64,000 nt of DNA from Promethearchaeota archaeon (GTDB lineage: Archaea; Asgardarchaeota; Lokiarchaeia; Sigyniarchaeales; SOKP01), in contig SHMW01000004.1 of the NCBI GenBank assembly GCA_008080735.1, positions 51,169 to 115,168 on the forward strand. Direction: 5' to 3'. Of the stretch, positions 330 to 11,353 are shown piece by piece (position 1 is the first letter of the stretch; every line of letters begins with the position of its first letter). The notes below the pieces were generated by a model, which was not told where the DNA came from, did no database searches, and worked only from the letters and a program-made list of their open reading frames with translations. Both the position numbers and the translations under genes were made by a program.

Positions 330-1130
330 CTATTTTACAATCCTTCTTTTGATCGCTATCTTATGCCCGATGTATGCTCCTCCAAGAGATGCGATGATAA
401 TAAAAGGCAAAAATGCTAAAATGATATAGATAAGCACCGGTTGCACAGACAAAAAGTACGTTATTATAATTATTATAAAATATATCAAGGCATTTATAAA
501 GGATACTTTAAGATTCAGCGATAACAATCCTGAAATAAAATTTGCTATACCAAATACGATCACCAACTCCGCAAAAGAAAATAGGACTATCTGTGGTATC
601 AAACGTGTTAAAATCTGCTCTATTGTAAAGAAGTTTGGATTTGGTGATAAAACTAAGTACTCTGTAGCAAAAATATTTAAAAGTGTAAACAAGATTGATA
701 GTGGAGTTAATATAATCCAAGTCAATGCAAAGCGCACGGGAAGTGAATACGTGGTATAACGCTTCAGATTGGTTTGCAGTATCTCCTCGATATTACTCCT
801 GTCTATCACTTCTAATTCATAATCAGGTGAAAACTCATCAATAAAATCTTGTAATAAATCTTTTAAAAAGTTGCTAACCAATTCATTATTATCTTTTGAA
901 CTCACAATTGCCGCTCCGAAAATTTTTTCCTCTGGTTTTGGCTCGAGAATTAATTTATTATCCTCTCCAAGATCGACGAATTTAACCACGCTTTCAAGCG
1001 CTTCTCTGCTAAAATTCGCAACAGAGGCAAAAAAACCTATTAAAATATTATCATCATATGGTTGGTCCATAAAATTCTTCGAATATAAGAGAATGCCATT
1101 TCTTTTGAGTATATATACACTTTTTATCAT
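330..1130 (-). CDS. Longin-domain membrane protein (N-terminal longin fold plus 4-5 TM helices)
   Basis: The N-terminus IKSVYILKRNGILLYSKNF...LIGFFASVANFSRE follows the longin/AP-sigma pattern. The C-terminal half is hydrophobic. GAGGA lies just upstream of the ATG. Confidence 0.7.
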   Translation of the reverse strand: MIKSVYILKRNGILLYSKNFMDQPYDDNILIGFFASVANFSREALESVVKFVDLGEDNKLILEPKPEEKIFGAAIVSSKDNNELVSNFLKDLLQDFIDEFSPDYELEVIDRSNIEEILQTNLKRYTTYSLPVRFALTWIILTPLSILFTLLNIFATEYLVLSPNPNFFTIEQILTRLIPQIVLFSFAELVIVFGIANFISGLLSLNLKVSFINALIYFIIIIITYFLSVQPVLIYIILAFLPFIIIASLGGAYIGHKIAIKRRIVK

Positions 1131-1163
1131 TTTAATCCTCTTGAATATTTTTTAATGTTATTT

Positions 1164-2879
1164 TTAATATGTTAATTCTAAAAATTGAGCGACTTCTGTC
1201 AAGGATGCTCTATAACGTTTAAAACTATAAAGATCTGGTCCAAATATATGGATTAATTTTTTTATTATCTCATTAGGCGCTTCTTTAGGAAATAGTTTGT
1301 ATTTTTCGTATTTTCTTTCTTCAATTACTATTGCTGATTTCAGCTCAAATAATTTGTTAATTGCTTCAGTATTTGGATAATTCAGTTCCACGGTAATCAA
1401 TTCCCCAGATTGAGGTATTTTTTCTATGAGTTCTTCTTTGGTTCCACATTCTAAACCTTTTTCTGTAATAGTTAGTACCTTATCACAATCAGAAATAATG
1501 GTTTCTGGACCGTGAACTATTAATGCTACATGAAACTCTCTTTTTACATCTTCTAAATATTTCTTAAATTTCTCGTATTGGAGCCGATTTAAAATACCCT
1601 TTGGAAGTGAGAACATAATGATATCAGGAGATTGTATAAGAGCCCGAGCAATACAAAATAGAAAATAATCTAACGCTTTTAAATCAGATACTGTATTTTT
1701 TCTTTTATTATACACTCCCGTAATTTGAAGTGCCCTCTTCCTAAGTTGTCGTCTTTCGCGATAATCCTGTAGAAATGATACGCTTTTCCAAAAAGGTCCT
1801 TTCGTCATCCATTCATCAAACAGAGTTGTAAGCTCAGACTCTCGTAAAATATTCATAAATTCTTCTTTGCTCCGTTGTCCCTTTATCTTTGTTTCCACAT
1901 TATATTTAATCGCCTTTTTCAGCTTCATGCCCGCCATTTTAGAATCAATTGCTTCAGGAACAATGAATATCTTTTCTAAATCCTCTTCAGTGGTTAACTG
2001 AATAAATTTACCGAATATTTTTATAGTACCCGAAAACTGATGGCTTTTTCCTGCGATCGTAGAAAAAAATCTCATTATATTAATCTGTTCTCTACTTGAT
2101 TCTGAGGAACCTTCATATAAAATTCCTAATGATTGTCCTCTCGTAAGCCTAAAACTTATATCTTCCAATTCATCGCTGATTGAGACATCTTCTAATAAAA
2201 GATGTTGATAATTTTTGTAAAAATTCCGAATCTCTAAAATAGATAGAATAATATCTATTAATTCCTCAATTAAATCGATAATATGAGGTGGATTTAACTC
2301 ATCCCAATTTCTAATAATATCTAATTGGGAAAACTCTTCTAGTTTTATTATTCGGGACAGAAAACGTGAGAAATTTATATTTGGTTGAAGCGGGTAATTT
2401 TCAAAATTGATATCCAATTGTACATAAAACCCTGGAAAATAAATTCTTACTCTTCGATGATAAGGTATCTGGTCGAGTTGATAATTCTCAAAATTATCAT
2501 TGAGAAGTTCTAATTCTCTATCTACTTCTTTTAAATGGTGTTGAAATTCCCTCTCGATTAATTTATCAATTCTCTGAATGATTTTTCTTGGACTTATTAA
2601 ACCATCCTCGTCAAAATCCGGTTCGACCAAGATTTCATTAAAATCTACTGTCGTTTCTATTGGGGTATTGATTTTTAATAGTGGAACACCTTTTTCTAAT
2701 ACATCCGTGTTAGTAAAGAATAAAACCTCGATAAAACTTTTTTTATATTCTAAATCTAAAACGGTCGCTAATCCAAAGGTCCCTTGCCGAAAGATTAACC
2801 AATATTTTTCTGAAAACCGAATTGCATCAGTTATTTTTTTTCTGAGAATTTCTAATTCTTCTTTCCTTGTTCTACTCAA
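1164..2879 (-). CDS. UEV/RWD-like domain fused to a degenerate ABC ATPase
   Basis: INFENYPLQPNINF...LDIIRNWDELNPPHIIDLIEEL is an E2/UEV-like pattern without the Cys. The ABC scaffold follows, with eroded Walker A and B (IARALIQSPDIIMFSLP). Start is probably TTG 2879 after GGAGGTG, overlapping the upstream stop (ORF track gives 2927). Confidence 0.65.
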   Translation of the reverse strand: MSRTRKEELEILRKKITDAIRFSEKYWLIFRQGTFGLATVLDLEYKKSFIEVLFFTNTDVLEKGVPLLKINTPIETTVDFNEILVEPDFDEDGLISPRKIIQRIDKLIEREFQHHLKEVDRELELLNDNFENYQLDQIPYHRRVRIYFPGFYVQLDINFENYPLQPNINFSRFLSRIIKLEEFSQLDIIRNWDELNPPHIIDLIEELIDIILSILEIRNFYKNYQHLLLEDVSISDELEDISFRLTRGQSLGILYEGSSESSREQINIMRFFSTIAGKSHQFSGTIKIFGKFIQLTTEEDLEKIFIVPEAIDSKMAGMKLKKAIKYNVETKIKGQRSKEEFMNILRESELTTLFDEWMTKGPFWKSVSFLQDYRERRQLRKRALQITGVYNKRKNTVSDLKALDYFLFCIARALIQSPDIIMFSLPKGILNRLQYEKFKKYLEDVKREFHVALIVHGPETIISDCDKVLTITEKGLECGTKEELIEKIPQSGELITVELNYPNTEAINKLFELKSAIVIEERKYEKYKLFPKEAPNEIIKKLIHIFGPDLYSFKRYRASLTEVAQFLELTY

Positions 2880-9899: not shown

Positions 9900-11050
9900 A
9901 CCTCCACCTTTTTAAACATATATACTATATAAGCTAATGCATCATATATAAGCGCAATAATTACTACAATCAACAATGAATAGATATCTACGGGCAATCC
10001 TTTCAACGTGATTTCCAATACCAATGGTATTGAATGATACAATGGGAACGAATAAATTATTGCTTGCATAAATACGGGCAAATTATCGGCACTAATAAAC
10101 TGCCCTGAAAATATTAATATGACAATAAAAAACATAATATATAACTGATTTGCTTGTTGATCGGTGCCACTTAGAGACGAAATAAATAGACCTATTGACA
10201 CCCCAGAAAATCCAATGGCAAGCAGAACTAGAAATAATTCAAAGAGAGATCCAAGACTATAAAGCCCAAAGAGAGCTGTCGCAACAAAGATTTCCGCTAC
10301 TTGTATGCTCATTATTGCTGAATTTGCGATAAGTTTACTTAATATAATTGACCTTTTTGAGGTTGGAGTAATCAGCATTCGAGGTAATGGTCCTTCAGAA
10401 ACAATTGATAAGCAAGATAAATTCATCGTGGTTCCAATAATAATTAACGGAATAGTCAGCGCAAATGCGTAGTTCACGACCTGAGCCTCCCAGAATGGTA
10501 CTTCAAATTCTAAATATGGTATGAAATATGTGAAATTGGCGGTTTTTCCAATTTTTATTCTAAATTGAGCGATTGGCTCGAACATGGTCACGTTTATAGC
10601 ACTTACTGCATCTGAATCTGAGCCGTCTATATAAAAAATTATTGGAATATCAGTATTATTCTCAACTGTTTCCGAAAAATTTTCGGGAAGGACTAAGAAC
10701 ACATCAATGACTTCATCTTTTAACCATTGGGTATAAAATGATTTTGCTTCTTCATATTCTTCTGGATTAGTAACATTACGATAGCCCTTGAATCCAAAAG
10801 ATGATAAATTACCTTCAAACACATTAATAAAATCGTCCGCATATTGGGACGAATTTTCGGGGAAATTCTCATATGTGGGAATACTATCTTTTGAAATAAT
10901 AGATACATTGAAGAATTCAGTAGGACCCCCTCCTGAGGTTAACCCGAATACTATAATTAAGATCAGTGGGATTGCAAATAAGAGAATTAGAGTACGCTTA
11001 TCACTTCGTATTCTCCCAAACTCCTTTCTTATCAATCCACTTAATTTAAT
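9896..11050 (-). CDS. ABC-2 type permease
   Basis: IRKEFGRIRSDKRTL, IDGSD, RMLITPTSKRSIILSK, FSGQF. Overlaps the next gene by 4 nt. Start is TTG 11035, or ATT 11050 after GAGGT. Confidence 0.9.
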   Translation of the reverse strand: MKLSGLIRKEFGRIRSDKRTLILLFAIPLILIIVFGLTSGGGPTEFFNVSIISKDSIPTYENFPENSSQYADDFINVFEGNLSSFGFKGYRNVTNPEEYEEAKSFYTQWLKDEVIDVFLVLPENFSETVENNTDIPIIFYIDGSDSDAVSAINVTMFEPIAQFRIKIGKTANFTYFIPYLEFEVPFWEAQVVNYAFALTIPLIIIGTTMNLSCLSIVSEGPLPRMLITPTSKRSIILSKLIANSAIMSIQVAEIFVATALFGLYSLGSLFELFLVLLAIGFSGVSIGLFISSLSGTDQQANQLYIMFFIVILIFSGQFISADNLPVFMQAIIYSFPLYHSIPLVLEITLKGLPVDIYSLLIVVIIALIYDALAYIVYMFKKVEV

Positions 11051-11353
11051 TTTAAATACCTCTGATTTCGTTCTGCTGAAATTTTAAACTTATTCTGATA
11101 ACAATTATAAAATAAACATAAAAATTTGTTTTAAAAAATCTATTTTTTTCGAAATTATTCAATTAGATTAGATAGATTAGATAGTCTTGTAATAAAAAGT
11201 TGATTCAGACATTACGATAAGATGAATATCTAATTACAAAATTACTTGGGATGTTTAGATATTTATGAAGATTGAAGAAACCTATAAATATAAGTTAATC
11301 TGAATTAAAACCTAAAAGAGCGACTATTTGGAAGAAGAATTTTACTTAAGAAT

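What the first reader, a model, noticed from the sequence alone, without database searches (positions are those of the whole stretch)
330..11062. Six-gene ABC operon coupled to eukaryotic-signature domains (longin, UEV/RWD) and a prenyltransferase-barrel ectodomain
Seen: co-oriented, partly overlapping genes for permease, permease, ATPase (with the candidate intron), PFTB-TM-ATPase fusion, UEV-like/degenerate ATPase and a longin-TM protein. Established: a standard ABC-2 exporter needs only permease(s) and one ATPase, and longin and UEV domains act in eukaryotic membrane trafficking and ESCRT-I. Inference: three different NBD-bearing subunits may compete or heterodimerise on the same permeases, linking an extracellular binder to ubiquitin-like or trafficking machinery. 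I know no described system with this composition.
Basis: partly seen in the sequence, partly recalled or inferred. Interest (0 to 1): 0.85.

Follow-up and report, generated by a model that had tools for sequence, protein, structure and literature searches.

The report
Asgard ABC operon with longin/UEV-like subunits
A Loki-type Asgard archaeon carries a conserved six-gene ABC-transporter cluster whose extra subunits have folds better known from eukaryotic trafficking (longin) and ubiquitin handling (E2-variant), which gives a concrete complex for testing what these domains do in archaea.

Summary
On the minus strand of 330-11035 lie two ABC-2 permeases, a DrrA-like ATPase (A), a prenyltransferase-toroid ectodomain-TM-ATPase fusion (B), a tandem UBC-fold/pseudo-ATPase protein (C) and a longin + 4-TM protein (D).

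- **Conservation:** the six genes keep this order in about 18 genomes of many genera. They also keep it on a contig whose C is only about 24% identical, while the flanking genes differ.
- **D:** its AlphaFold model matches AP sigma/mu, zeta-COP, TRAPP and Sec22b longin domains.
- **Topology:** N-glycosylation sequons cluster in the permease loops and in the B ectodomain.
- **ATPase split:** a 32-nt bulge-helix-bulge intron (6549-6580) splits A. It is present at the same codon in 11 genomes, with covariation, so the gene is probably intact after splicing. The scan has already reported similar mini-introns in other genes of this genome.
- **Not conserved:** a 1.5-kb TPR insertion between permease 2 and A is specific to this genome.

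The mechanism is inferred, not shown. The cluster is confined to one Lokiarchaeial family plus a few neighbours, and I found no published description of it.

The parts
9896..11035 (-). Permease 1 (379 aa): ABC-2 type, 6 TM helices, about 150-aa extracellular loop between TM1 and TM2
   Evidence: Pfam ABC2_membrane_3 at 1.9e-26. Hydropathy gives 6 TM segments, and 8 of 9 NxS/T sequons lie in the loop at residues 34-183. Conserved as the first gene of the unit.
8658..9899 (-). Permease 2 (413 aa): paralogue of permease 1 (about 31% identity), same topology
   Evidence: Pfam ABC2_membrane_3 at 2.3e-29. All 8 NxS/T sequons lie in residues 71-218, the TM1-TM2 loop and its edge (TM2 predicted at 219-237). 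Overlaps perm1 by 4 nt. Cross-hits between the two permeases are 28-36% identical.
8530..8625 (-). Remnant duplicate of the ATPase 5' end (matches residues 8-39 of A, 66% identity), followed by a stop
   Evidence: tblastn of the A N-terminal piece against 7101-8700.
7309..8510 (-). Genome-specific insertion: TPR protein gene (7569-8510) and an 88-aa ORF (7309-7575). Not part of the conserved unit.
   Evidence: Pfam TPR_12 at 1.2e-13. GC is 0.25-0.28 here against about 0.33 around it. In most relatives perm2 is followed directly by A.
6581..7101 (-). ATPase A, exon 1: Walker A, Q-loop, LSGGE signature, Walker B, ending ...DEPTT
   Evidence: ABC_tran at 5.3e-25 and drrA at 2.8e-34. Sequence read.
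6549..6580 (-). 32-nt bulge-helix-bulge (hBHBh') intron between the Walker B motif and the D-loop of A
   Evidence: Relatives with an intact gene lack exactly these bases. Eleven genomes carry a 31-34-nt insert at the same codon. Covariation is shown. Cutting after the 2nd nt of each 3-nt bulge, the EndA rule cited in PMC2738675, restores ACN GGN.
6071..6548 (-). ATPase A, exon 2: D-loop GVD, H-loop THDLE and a DrrA-type C-terminal domain. The spliced product would be 332 aa.
   Evidence: drrA at 1.6e-06 on the 134-aa ORF piece. Intact orthologues are 328-369 aa in 11 of 12 loci; one ORF is 530 aa.
2872..6000 (-). B (1042 aa): N-terminal anchor helix, about 600-aa prenyltransferase alpha-alpha-toroid ectodomain, TM helix, canonical DrrA-like NBD and C-terminal domain
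   Evidence: Pfam Prenyltrans at 4.6e-36 and ABC_tran at 1.4e-25. 18 of 20 NxS/T sequons lie in residues 66-498. The listed homologues carry Prenyltrans + ABC_tran hits and, where named, come from Loki/Promethearchaeota MAGs, two of them labelled Hermodarchaeota. PDB sequence matches are at repeat level only, to RabGGTase and FTase beta.
1164..2879 (-). C (571 aa from TTG 2879; an alternative GTG at 2927 gives 587 aa): domain 1 (1-95), UBC-fold E2-variant-like domain 2 (97-215), pseudo-NBD (223-500), DrrA-type C-terminal domain
330..1130 (-). D (266 aa): cytoplasmic longin domain (1-about 105), linker helix, 4 TM helices
   Evidence: AF2 pLDDT 79, with bb-a-bbb-a topology followed by long helices. 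Foldseek PDB hits to AP sigma/mu, zeta-COP, TRAPP, Sec22b and SRX at E 4e-5 to 6e-3. Atlas hits to an Asgard Fuz_longin_1 cluster and eukaryotic Clat_adaptor_s.

Best explanation
This is a lineage-specific, six-subunit ABC-2 (type V, DrrAB/ABCA-like) membrane machine of Lokiarchaeial Asgard archaea.

**Shown**
- Two paralogous permeases, each with 6 TM helices and a large, sequon-rich extracellular loop.
- A canonical soluble ATPase (A), whose mRNA must lose a 32-nt BHB intron to be translated whole.
- A second canonical NBD (B), tethered through one TM helix to a large, sequon-rich prenyltransferase-type alpha/alpha-toroid ectodomain.
- A cytosolic protein (C) with an E2-variant-like UBC-fold domain and an ABC domain that has lost every catalytic motif in all orthologues.
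- A 4-TM protein (D) with a cytoplasmic longin domain.
- All six genes are inherited together, in the same order.

**Inferred**
- The permease heterodimer is energised by A and/or B.
- B's ectodomain sits beside the permease extracellular domains. There it holds or receives the transported molecule. A hydrophobic, possibly isoprenoid-based, lipid or a glycoconjugate fits the fold and the ABCA-like architecture.
- C is a regulatory pseudo-NBD that docks where an NBD would dock, most simply against B's NBD, whose gene it overlaps.
- D anchors or regulates this cytoplasmic face. The UBC-fold and longin domains would serve as protein-interaction platforms.
For: **Domain assignments**
- Pfam and NCBIfam hits for permeases, A and B.
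- AF2 models and fold searches for C and D.
- Profile-profile link of C domain 2 to UQ_con/RWD-bearing repeats: r2 99.1%, r3 97.5%, r1 93.3% (E 2.7e-7), r4 79.6%.
- C has a YPxxP...W..P motif and no HPN/Cys.

**Pseudo-NBD**
- It is conserved as such, down to about 24% identity.

**Synteny**
- Same order in L013-L029. Partial clusters, cut by contig ends, in L024, L030, L031 and L032.
- The full unit also occurs around the distant homologue P0141.
- Flanking genes differ: G3P dehydrogenase, PHP, transposase, DUF763, corrinoid genes.
- Start/stop overlaps between perm1 and perm2, and between B and C.

**Topology**
- NxS/T sequons: 8 of 9 and 8 of 8 in the permease loops, 18 of 20 in the B ectodomain, and 1 each in C and D.

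**Gene A**
- The intron structure covaries: 96.9% of cells paired against 82.5% in shuffles; 7 of 13 pairs change on both sides; slid controls give 10-50%.
- The genome has two EndA-family genes.

**ABCA-like character**
- ABCA4 and ABCG chains are among the structural matches, with the C-terminal domain included in the alignment.
Against: - No experiment or RNA data.
- In this genome a 1.5-kb insertion separates the permease genes from A. Strict operon transcription is therefore doubtful here.
- Which NBDs pair with which permease is unknown. So is whether C and D touch the transporter at all.
- The UBC-fold call for C rests on transitive profile matches and topology. There is no direct Pfam hit, no PDB sequence hit, and no structural hit, because the NBD filled the fold-search list.
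- Domain 1 of C is unassigned (17-66%).
- The substrate is a guess from the fold alone.
- No C-D fusion protein was found.
Confidence: 0.5

Rival explanations
1. Two separate systems share a locus. One is an ordinary ABC-2 exporter (perm1, perm2, A homodimer). The other is an independent receptor-like module, in which B's ectodomain senses an external ligand and B's NBD pairs with the pseudo-NBD of C. The state is passed to cytosolic partners through the UBC-fold and longin domains of C and D, and B, C and D transport nothing.
For: - B has only two hydrophobic helices and cannot form a pore by itself.
- B, C and D are the most tightly packed genes: an 8-nt B/C overlap and a 33-nt C/D spacer.
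- C's NBD scores slightly nearer to B than to A (33.5 against 27.3 bits).
- A standard ABC-2 exporter needs only permeases and one ATPase (general knowledge of DrrAB-type systems).
- Insertions are tolerated between perm2 and A, and between B and C, in some genomes.
Against: - Every contig long enough to show it carries all six genes together, in one order, even at about 24% identity of C.
- No genome was found with B-C-D apart from the permeases. The apparent cases are contig ends.
- A B-C dimer would have no fully competent ATP site, since C lacks LSGGQ and Walker A.
Confidence: 0.25
2. C and D are decaying passengers: a dead ATPase copy and a hypothetical membrane protein. The eukaryote-like folds are incidental, and the working system is only the permeases plus A and/or B.
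For: - C has lost all ATPase motifs.
- Neither C nor D hits any Pfam family.
- The cluster is patchy even within genera: g11 9 of 22, g2 16 of 27.
Against: - C and D are full-length open frames in all orthologues. They have conserved cores (30 and 20 invariant columns across 19 sequences).
- Both give confident AF2 models (pLDDT 89.7 and 79.4).
- The pseudo-NBD state is old and stable. This is what purifying selection on a non-catalytic role would produce.
Confidence: 0.04
3. The split ATPase A is a pseudogene or an assembly artefact. In this genome the machine would then run on B alone, or not at all.
For: Read literally, the gene is two ORFs with a frameshift and stop codons between them.
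Against: - The same 31-34-nt insert sits at the same codon in 11 genomes of 5 genera, with both halves open in each.
- It forms an hBHBh' motif. Compensatory changes occur in the exon-exon, exon-intron and intron-intron helices.
- The predicted EndA cuts restore the frame exactly.
- The genome encodes EndA.
Confidence: 0.05

Closest known systems
ABC-2 / DrrAB-type (type V) exporters with extracellular-domain permeases (Pfam ABC2_membrane_3; E. coli YbhFSR, RbbA/YhhJ) and the eukaryotic ABCA subfamily
   Same: - 6-TM permeases with a large loop between TM1 and TM2.
- A heterodimeric permease pair.
- DrrA-like NBDs followed by a C-terminal regulatory-type domain.

   Different: - Three NBD-bearing proteins rather than one or two.
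- One NBD is tethered by a single TM helix to a roughly 600-aa ectodomain.
- One NBD is catalytically dead and fused to UBC-fold domains.
- There is an extra longin-TM subunit.
ABC-2 systems with an extracytoplasmic accessory protein (NosDFY, GldAFG)
   Same: An ABC-2 permease and ATPase work with a large domain outside the membrane. NosF is among the structural matches of C.
   Different: In those systems the outside domain is a separate protein bound to the permease. Here it is covalently joined to an NBD. Its fold is an alpha/alpha toroid, not a beta-helix.
ABC transporters with one degenerate nucleotide site (TM287/288, TAP1/2, CFTR)
   Same: A catalytically impaired NBD is kept as a structural or regulatory partner of an active one.
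   Different: C lacks Walker A, signature and Walker B together. It also has no transmembrane domain of its own.
UEV / RWD / E2 (UBC-fold) domains, e.g. Vps23/Tsg101 UEV of ESCRT-I, GCN2 RWD, FANCL double-RWD
   Same: - alpha-beta4-alpha2 topology.
- A YPxxP strand motif and a W..P helix cap.
- No catalytic Cys.
- Tandem arrangement.

   Different: - No coiled-coil stalk or steadiness box.
- Fused instead to an ABC pseudo-ATPase.
- No ESCRT or ubiquitin genes are linked to it.
- Ubiquitin binding has not been tested.
Longin domains (AP sigma/mu-N, zeta-COP, TRAPP Bet5/Trs23/sedlin, Sec22b/Ykt6 longin SNAREs, SRX, Fuzzy/Mon1)
   Same: Five-stranded sheet with flanking helices. TM-score by target 0.5-0.75.
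   Different: It is joined to a 4-helix membrane domain. Longin SNAREs have a SNARE helix and one TM anchor. D sits in an ABC transporter cluster, and no Pfam longin family matches its sequence.
BHB intron of cbf5 pre-mRNA in Crenarchaeota (PMC2738675)
   Same: A short intron in a protein-coding gene. It is recognised through a (relaxed) bulge-helix-bulge motif and cut between the 2nd and 3rd bulge residues.
   Different: The host gene (ABC ATPase) and the lineage (Lokiarchaeial Asgard) differ. It is one of several such mini-introns that this scan has reported in the same genome.

Membership tests
ABC-2 transporter permease (PF12698/PF01061) | Sequence match above the Pfam threshold; 6 TM helices with a large TM1-TM2 loop | tested here: met
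   PF12698 at 93-103 bits against a cut-off of 31.6. Six hydrophobic segments in each permease.
ABC ATPase (catalytic NBD) | Walker A GxxGxGK[ST], LSGGQ signature, Walker B hhhhDE, H-loop | tested here: met
   This applies to A (after removal of 6549-6580) and to B. A: GISGAGKT, LSGGE, LFLDEP, THD. B: GESGAGKS, LSGGQ, ILDEP, SH.
ABC ATPase (catalytic NBD), protein C | The same catalytic motifs | tested here: not met
UBC-fold superfamily (E2 / UEV / RWD), C domain 2 | Homology to UQ_con or RWD profiles | tested here: met
   The link is indirect. hhalign against repeats of a paralogous family whose repeats 1 and 4 pass the Pfam UQ_con and RWD cut-offs gives r1 93.3% (E 2.7e-7), r2 99.1%, r3 97.5%, and r4 to domain 2 79.6%. 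A direct Pfam scan of C finds nothing.
UBC-fold superfamily (E2 / UEV / RWD), C domain 2 | Structural match of the domain to solved UBC/UEV/RWD structures | tested here: inconclusive
   The NBD filled the whole-model search lists. The topology alpha-beta4-alpha-alpha is compatible.
E2 ubiquitin-conjugating enzyme (catalytic) | HPN motif and active-site Cys | tested here: not met
   Neither is present in domain 2 of any orthologue. The domain is therefore a variant (UEV/RWD-like), not an enzyme.
ESCRT-I Vps23/Tsg101 | UEV followed by a coiled-coil stalk and steadiness box, linked to ESCRT genes | tested here: not met
   In the AF2 model the UBC-fold domains run straight into an NBD. The flanking genes are unrelated and variable.
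Longin domain | beta2-alpha-beta3-alpha(-alpha) fold matching solved longin domains | tested here: met
   Foldseek: 6owo_S at 4e-5; 9c58_M with TMt 0.73 and rmsd 3.0; Sec22b 1ifq at 5.5e-3. Atlas: a Fuz_longin_1 cluster at TM 0.72 and Clat_adaptor_s at 0.75. No Pfam sequence hit.
Longin domain | Binding or regulation of a small GTPase or SNARE | not testable with these tools
   Needs biochemistry.
Prenyltransferase/terpene-cyclase alpha-alpha toroid (PF00432) | Repeat match above the Pfam threshold | tested here: met
   125 bits against a cut-off of 26.5, in 3 stretches. Repeat-level hits to RabGGTase and FTase beta.
Prenyltransferase/terpene-cyclase alpha-alpha toroid (PF00432) | Catalytic Zn ligands or prenyl-transfer activity | not tested
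   An extracellular location argues for binding rather than prenyl transfer. This is an inference.
Archaeal BHB intron | [quoted passage not shown] | tested here: met
   - Outer helix ACC/GGU.
- Bulge AAA.
- Central helix UACC/GAUA, with one C-A mismatch in this genome. The other nine distinct sequences pair at all four positions; some use G-U pairs.
- Bulge ACA.
- 10-bp inner stem.

Archaeal BHB intron | Cuts between the 2nd and 3rd bulge nucleotides give an in-frame product identical to intron-less orthologues | tested here: met
   Removing 31-34 nt restores ...DEPTT-GVD... in all 11 genomes. The cutting rule is taken from PMC2738675.
Archaeal BHB intron | A spliced RNA is observed | not testable with these tools

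The most novel reading that the evidence does not exclude
C and D are an Asgard-specific cytoplasmic adaptor pair. Through an E2-variant domain and a membrane-anchored longin domain, they couple an ABC machine with a receptor-like ectodomain to ubiquitin-like or small-GTPase signalling. That would be a prokaryotic setting in which trafficking-type domains regulate a membrane transporter, and so a possible functional precursor of their eukaryotic roles.
Probability: 0.15. Interest if true: 0.85.

Novelty: new variant of a known kind. Interest (0 to 1): 0.6.

Why it matters
Longin and UEV/RWD domains are counted among the eukaryotic signature proteins of Asgard archaea. What they do in an archaeal cell is largely unknown. 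Here both sit in a compact, conserved gene cluster with a well-understood engine, an ABC transporter. That gives a defined six-protein complex which could be co-expressed, purified, imaged and assayed.

The cluster also adds two unusual ABC designs. One is an NBD wired through a single helix to a large extracellular toroid. The other is a fully degenerate NBD kept for hundreds of millions of base changes.

The ATPase gene adds one more well-supported case of tRNA-type splicing of a protein-coding mRNA in Asgard archaea.

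Tried and rejected
- **Complex prediction on full-length C + D:** score 0.00, no verdict, controls not run. It says nothing for or against binding.
- **Whole-model fold searches of C** (pdb_via_wide, viral): the lists were filled by ABC NBDs, so the N-terminal domains were barely tested. One weak giant-virus E2 row appeared (E 0.019) and is not used.
- **HMM searches of C domain 1 and domain 2 against PDB sequences:** only chance-level hits (Rpb8 at 0.0057, Csm3 at 0.95).
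- **Protein atlas feature search of C residues 1-220:** no usable hit.
- **Search for longer proteins containing D** (C-D or other fusions): none found, which is weak evidence.
- **Literature searches** for this domain combination in Asgard archaea: no paper describes it.
- **Apparent genomes with C but without A:** these are contig ends and capped candidate scoring, not real separations.
- **Intron repeat search:** the exact intron stem sequence occurs only once in this genome at up to 3 mismatches, so it is not a dispersed repeat.
- **Pseudogene reading of A:** rejected on covariation.

Full report
**What is there.** The window comes from a 4.1-Mb Loki-type (Promethearchaeota) Asgard MAG; source names appear. 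On the minus strand of 330-11035 lie, in order:
- permease 1 (9896-11035);
- permease 2 (8658-9899);
- ATPase A, in two ORF pieces (6559-7101 and 6071-6475);
- the 1042-aa fusion B (2872-6000);
- the 571/587-aa protein C (1164-2879/2927);
- the 266-aa protein D (330-1130).

Pfam and NCBIfam give ABC2_membrane_3 for both permeases, DrrA-like ABC_tran for A and for the C-terminal third of B, and Prenyltrans (4.6e-36) for the middle of B. They give nothing significant for D or for the N-terminal half of C. perm1 and perm2 overlap by 4 nt. The conserved TTG start of C overlaps B's stop by 8 nt. D follows C after 33 nt, with a GAGGA upstream.

**An insertion the finding did not mention.** Between perm2 and A this genome has 1.5 kb of low-GC DNA (0.25-0.28). 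It holds a TPR gene, an 88-aa ORF and, right after perm2, a remnant copy of the ATPase 5' end (8530-8625, 66% identical to residues 8-39 of A). In most relatives perm2 is followed directly by A. Other genomes have other insertions at the same junction, or between B and C.

**Conservation.** A search of 41 related genomes with C found strong full-length matches in 17 of the 24 other genomes sampled from the same family. Each lay next to a roughly 1050-aa ORF. I fetched up to 10 kb around 20 of them.

Every contig long enough shows perm1-perm2-A-B-C-D in this order and orientation (L013-L023 and L025-L029). L024, L030, L031 and L032 are partial clusters cut by contig ends, and they include members of two other families. 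A representative only about 24% identical to C (P0141) sits in the same six-gene arrangement, with 4-nt overlaps, on an independent NCBI contig.

The genes flanking the unit differ from genome to genome: glycerol-3-phosphate dehydrogenase, PHP, a DDE transposase, DUF763, and here corrinoid/URO-D methyltransferase genes.

Across 301 sampled genomes of the phylum, C occurs in 36 of 68 genomes of its own family. Elsewhere there is only one C-terminal, NBD-only match, and none in the 7 sampled genomes of family f2. In the earlier 41-genome search, strong or N-terminal C matches outside family f1 came only from G037 (f2) and G029 (f4). The cluster is thus a patchy, lineage-specific accessory unit. 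Apparent cases of C without A are contig ends.

**Protein D.** An AF2 model built from 19 orthologues (pLDDT 79) has strands 2-9 and 14-19, helix 27-40, strands 51-55, 58-65 and 70-77, and helix 82-100. A linker helix and four long hydrophobic helices follow.

Foldseek against the PDB returns AP-2/AP-1/AP-3 sigma and mu N-terminal domains, zeta-COP, TRAPP subunits, Sec22b, SRX and LAMTOR. E-values run from 4e-5 to 6e-3 and TM-score by target from 0.5 to 0.73. The Atlas search returns an Asgard Fuz_longin_1 cluster (0.72) and eukaryotic Clat_adaptor_s (0.75). The longin call is confirmed at fold level.

**Protein C.** An AF2 model from 41 sequences is confident (pLDDT 89.7, pTM 0.83). It has two small alpha/beta domains (1-95 and 97-215), an NBD-like domain (223-500) and a C-terminal domain.

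- *Domain 2.* It carries the ...INFExYPxxPxxxF...NW..xxPPHI... pattern and has no Cys or HPN. It matches the second repeat of a 550-600-aa protein family found throughout the order (98.5%, E 1.7e-15). That family has four such repeats and a Cys-rich C-terminus, and its first and fourth repeats pass the Pfam thresholds for UQ_con and RWD.
- *Repeat by repeat.* Domain 2 scores 93.3% against repeat 1, 99.1% against repeat 2 and 97.5% against repeat 3. Repeat 4 scores 79.6% against domain 2. Domain 2 is therefore a non-catalytic UBC-fold (UEV/RWD-like) domain.
- *Domain 1.* It remains unassigned (17-66%).
- *Limits.* Direct Pfam, PDB-sequence and whole-model fold searches did not show the UBC fold.

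**Protein B and topology.** B has hydrophobic segments only at residues 1-19 and 673-691. NxS/T sequons are strongly partitioned. Eight of 9 and 8 of 8 lie in the permease TM1-TM2 loops, and 18 of 20 lie in B residues 66-498. C and D have one each. This fits N-glycosylated extracellular domains and puts the toroid outside and the NBD inside.

The Prenyltrans + ABC_tran fusion is annotated only generically. The homologues that carry a source name are from Loki/Promethearchaeota MAGs, two of them labelled Hermodarchaeota. PDB sequence similarity is at repeat level, to RabGGTase and FTase beta.

**The split ATPase.** Orthologues with an intact gene read ...DEPTT-GVD... without interruption. This genome and ten others, from five genera, carry 31-34 extra bases at exactly this codon.

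The RNA folds as follows:
- outer helix ACC/GGU;
- a 3-nt bulge;
- a 4-bp central helix (UACC/GGUA in several genomes, AACU/AGUU in others, UACC/GAUA with one mismatch here);
- a second 3-nt bulge on the other strand;
- an inner hairpin.

On the alignment, 96.9% of cells pair, against 82.5% in shuffles (0 of 500 reach the observed value). Seven of 13 pairs change on both sides, including synonymous exon positions. Sliding the partner columns drops pairing to 10-50%.

Cutting between the 2nd and 3rd bulge residues, as stated for archaeal EndA in PMC2738675, removes 6549-6580 and restores the frame in all eleven genomes. The genome has two EndA-family genes. A is therefore very probably a functional 332-aa ATPase made from a spliced mRNA. 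No RNA data could be obtained. Earlier notes of this scan report similar mini-introns in other coding genes of the same genome. I tested only this one.

**How it most likely works.** The parts list and its inheritance as a unit are shown. The rest is inference.

The permeases look like the extracellular-domain-bearing type V ABC-2 transporters, and so like ABCA half-transporters. A and B supply two canonical NBDs. B also carries an outside toroid that could bind or receive what the permeases extrude. The fold family binds isoprenoid chains in its known enzymes, and archaeal lipids and glycan carriers are isoprenoid. That makes a lipid or lipid-linked substrate a reasonable guess, but only a guess.

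C keeps an NBD shape without chemistry. It probably docks on an NBD or permease site as a regulator, bringing a UBC-fold interaction domain with it. D supplies a membrane-anchored longin platform.

The main rival is that B-C-D form a separate receptor-like module next to an ordinary exporter. Strict co-occurrence argues against this but does not exclude it. A complex prediction for C with D gave no verdict.

**Novelty.** I found no paper describing this composition. Each domain is known; the combination is not. The new elements are an NBD tethered to an ectodomain, a pseudo-NBD fused to E2-variant domains, and a longin-TM subunit, all within one ABC-2 cluster. The distribution is narrow, one Lokiarchaeial family plus a few neighbours. 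I class the cluster as a new variant of a known kind.

Noticed in passing
window 6549-6580 (-): A 32-nt BHB intron in the ABC ATPase gene. The same insert occurs at the same codon in 11 genomes of 5 genera, with compensatory changes in all three helix types. Within the genus it is polymorphic: two genomes have it and five have the intact gene.
   Followed up: yes
window 7101-8657 (-): A genome-specific low-GC insertion. It carries a TPR gene, an 88-aa ORF and a remnant duplicate of the ATPase 5' end (8530-8625). The perm2/A junction also holds unrelated insertions in G003 (a 510-aa ORF) and G019.
   Followed up: partly
L070:1176-2861 (G000 contig C106), and L071-L074: A protein family of 550-600 aa found in the five genomes examined, with weak matches across most of the order. 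It has four tandem UBC-fold repeats, each with a YPxxP motif (Pfam UQ_con on repeat 1, RWD on repeat 4), and a Cys-rich RING-like C-terminus. Its repeats 1-2 look like the source of, or a sister to, the N-terminal half of protein C.
   Followed up: partly
L015:8342-9724 and L017:7750-9073: In genus g3 a 1.7-kb insertion lies between B and C. It has two ORFs on the opposite strand (about 240 and 155 aa) with no Pfam match.
   Followed up: no
L021:3398-4990: In G002 the ATPase A open frame is 530 aa rather than about 340. It runs on almost to the start of B, so it may carry a C-terminal extension.
   Followed up: no
G000 contigs C72:1034-1273 and C37:9578-9826: Two separate EndA-family (tRNA_int_endo) genes, in 224-aa and 208-aa frames. 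This would fit a heteromeric splicing endonuclease with broad substrate range.
   Followed up: no
window 11354-13045 (+): Divergently transcribed corrinoid-binding protein (B12-binding, 3e-22) and URO-D/MtaA-like methyltransferase (6e-60) genes lie just upstream of the cluster. They are not linked to it in relatives.
   Followed up: no
L013:1277-2932: A DDE transposase (DDE_Tnp_1, 8e-16) lies directly upstream of the cluster in the closest relative, G006.
   Followed up: no
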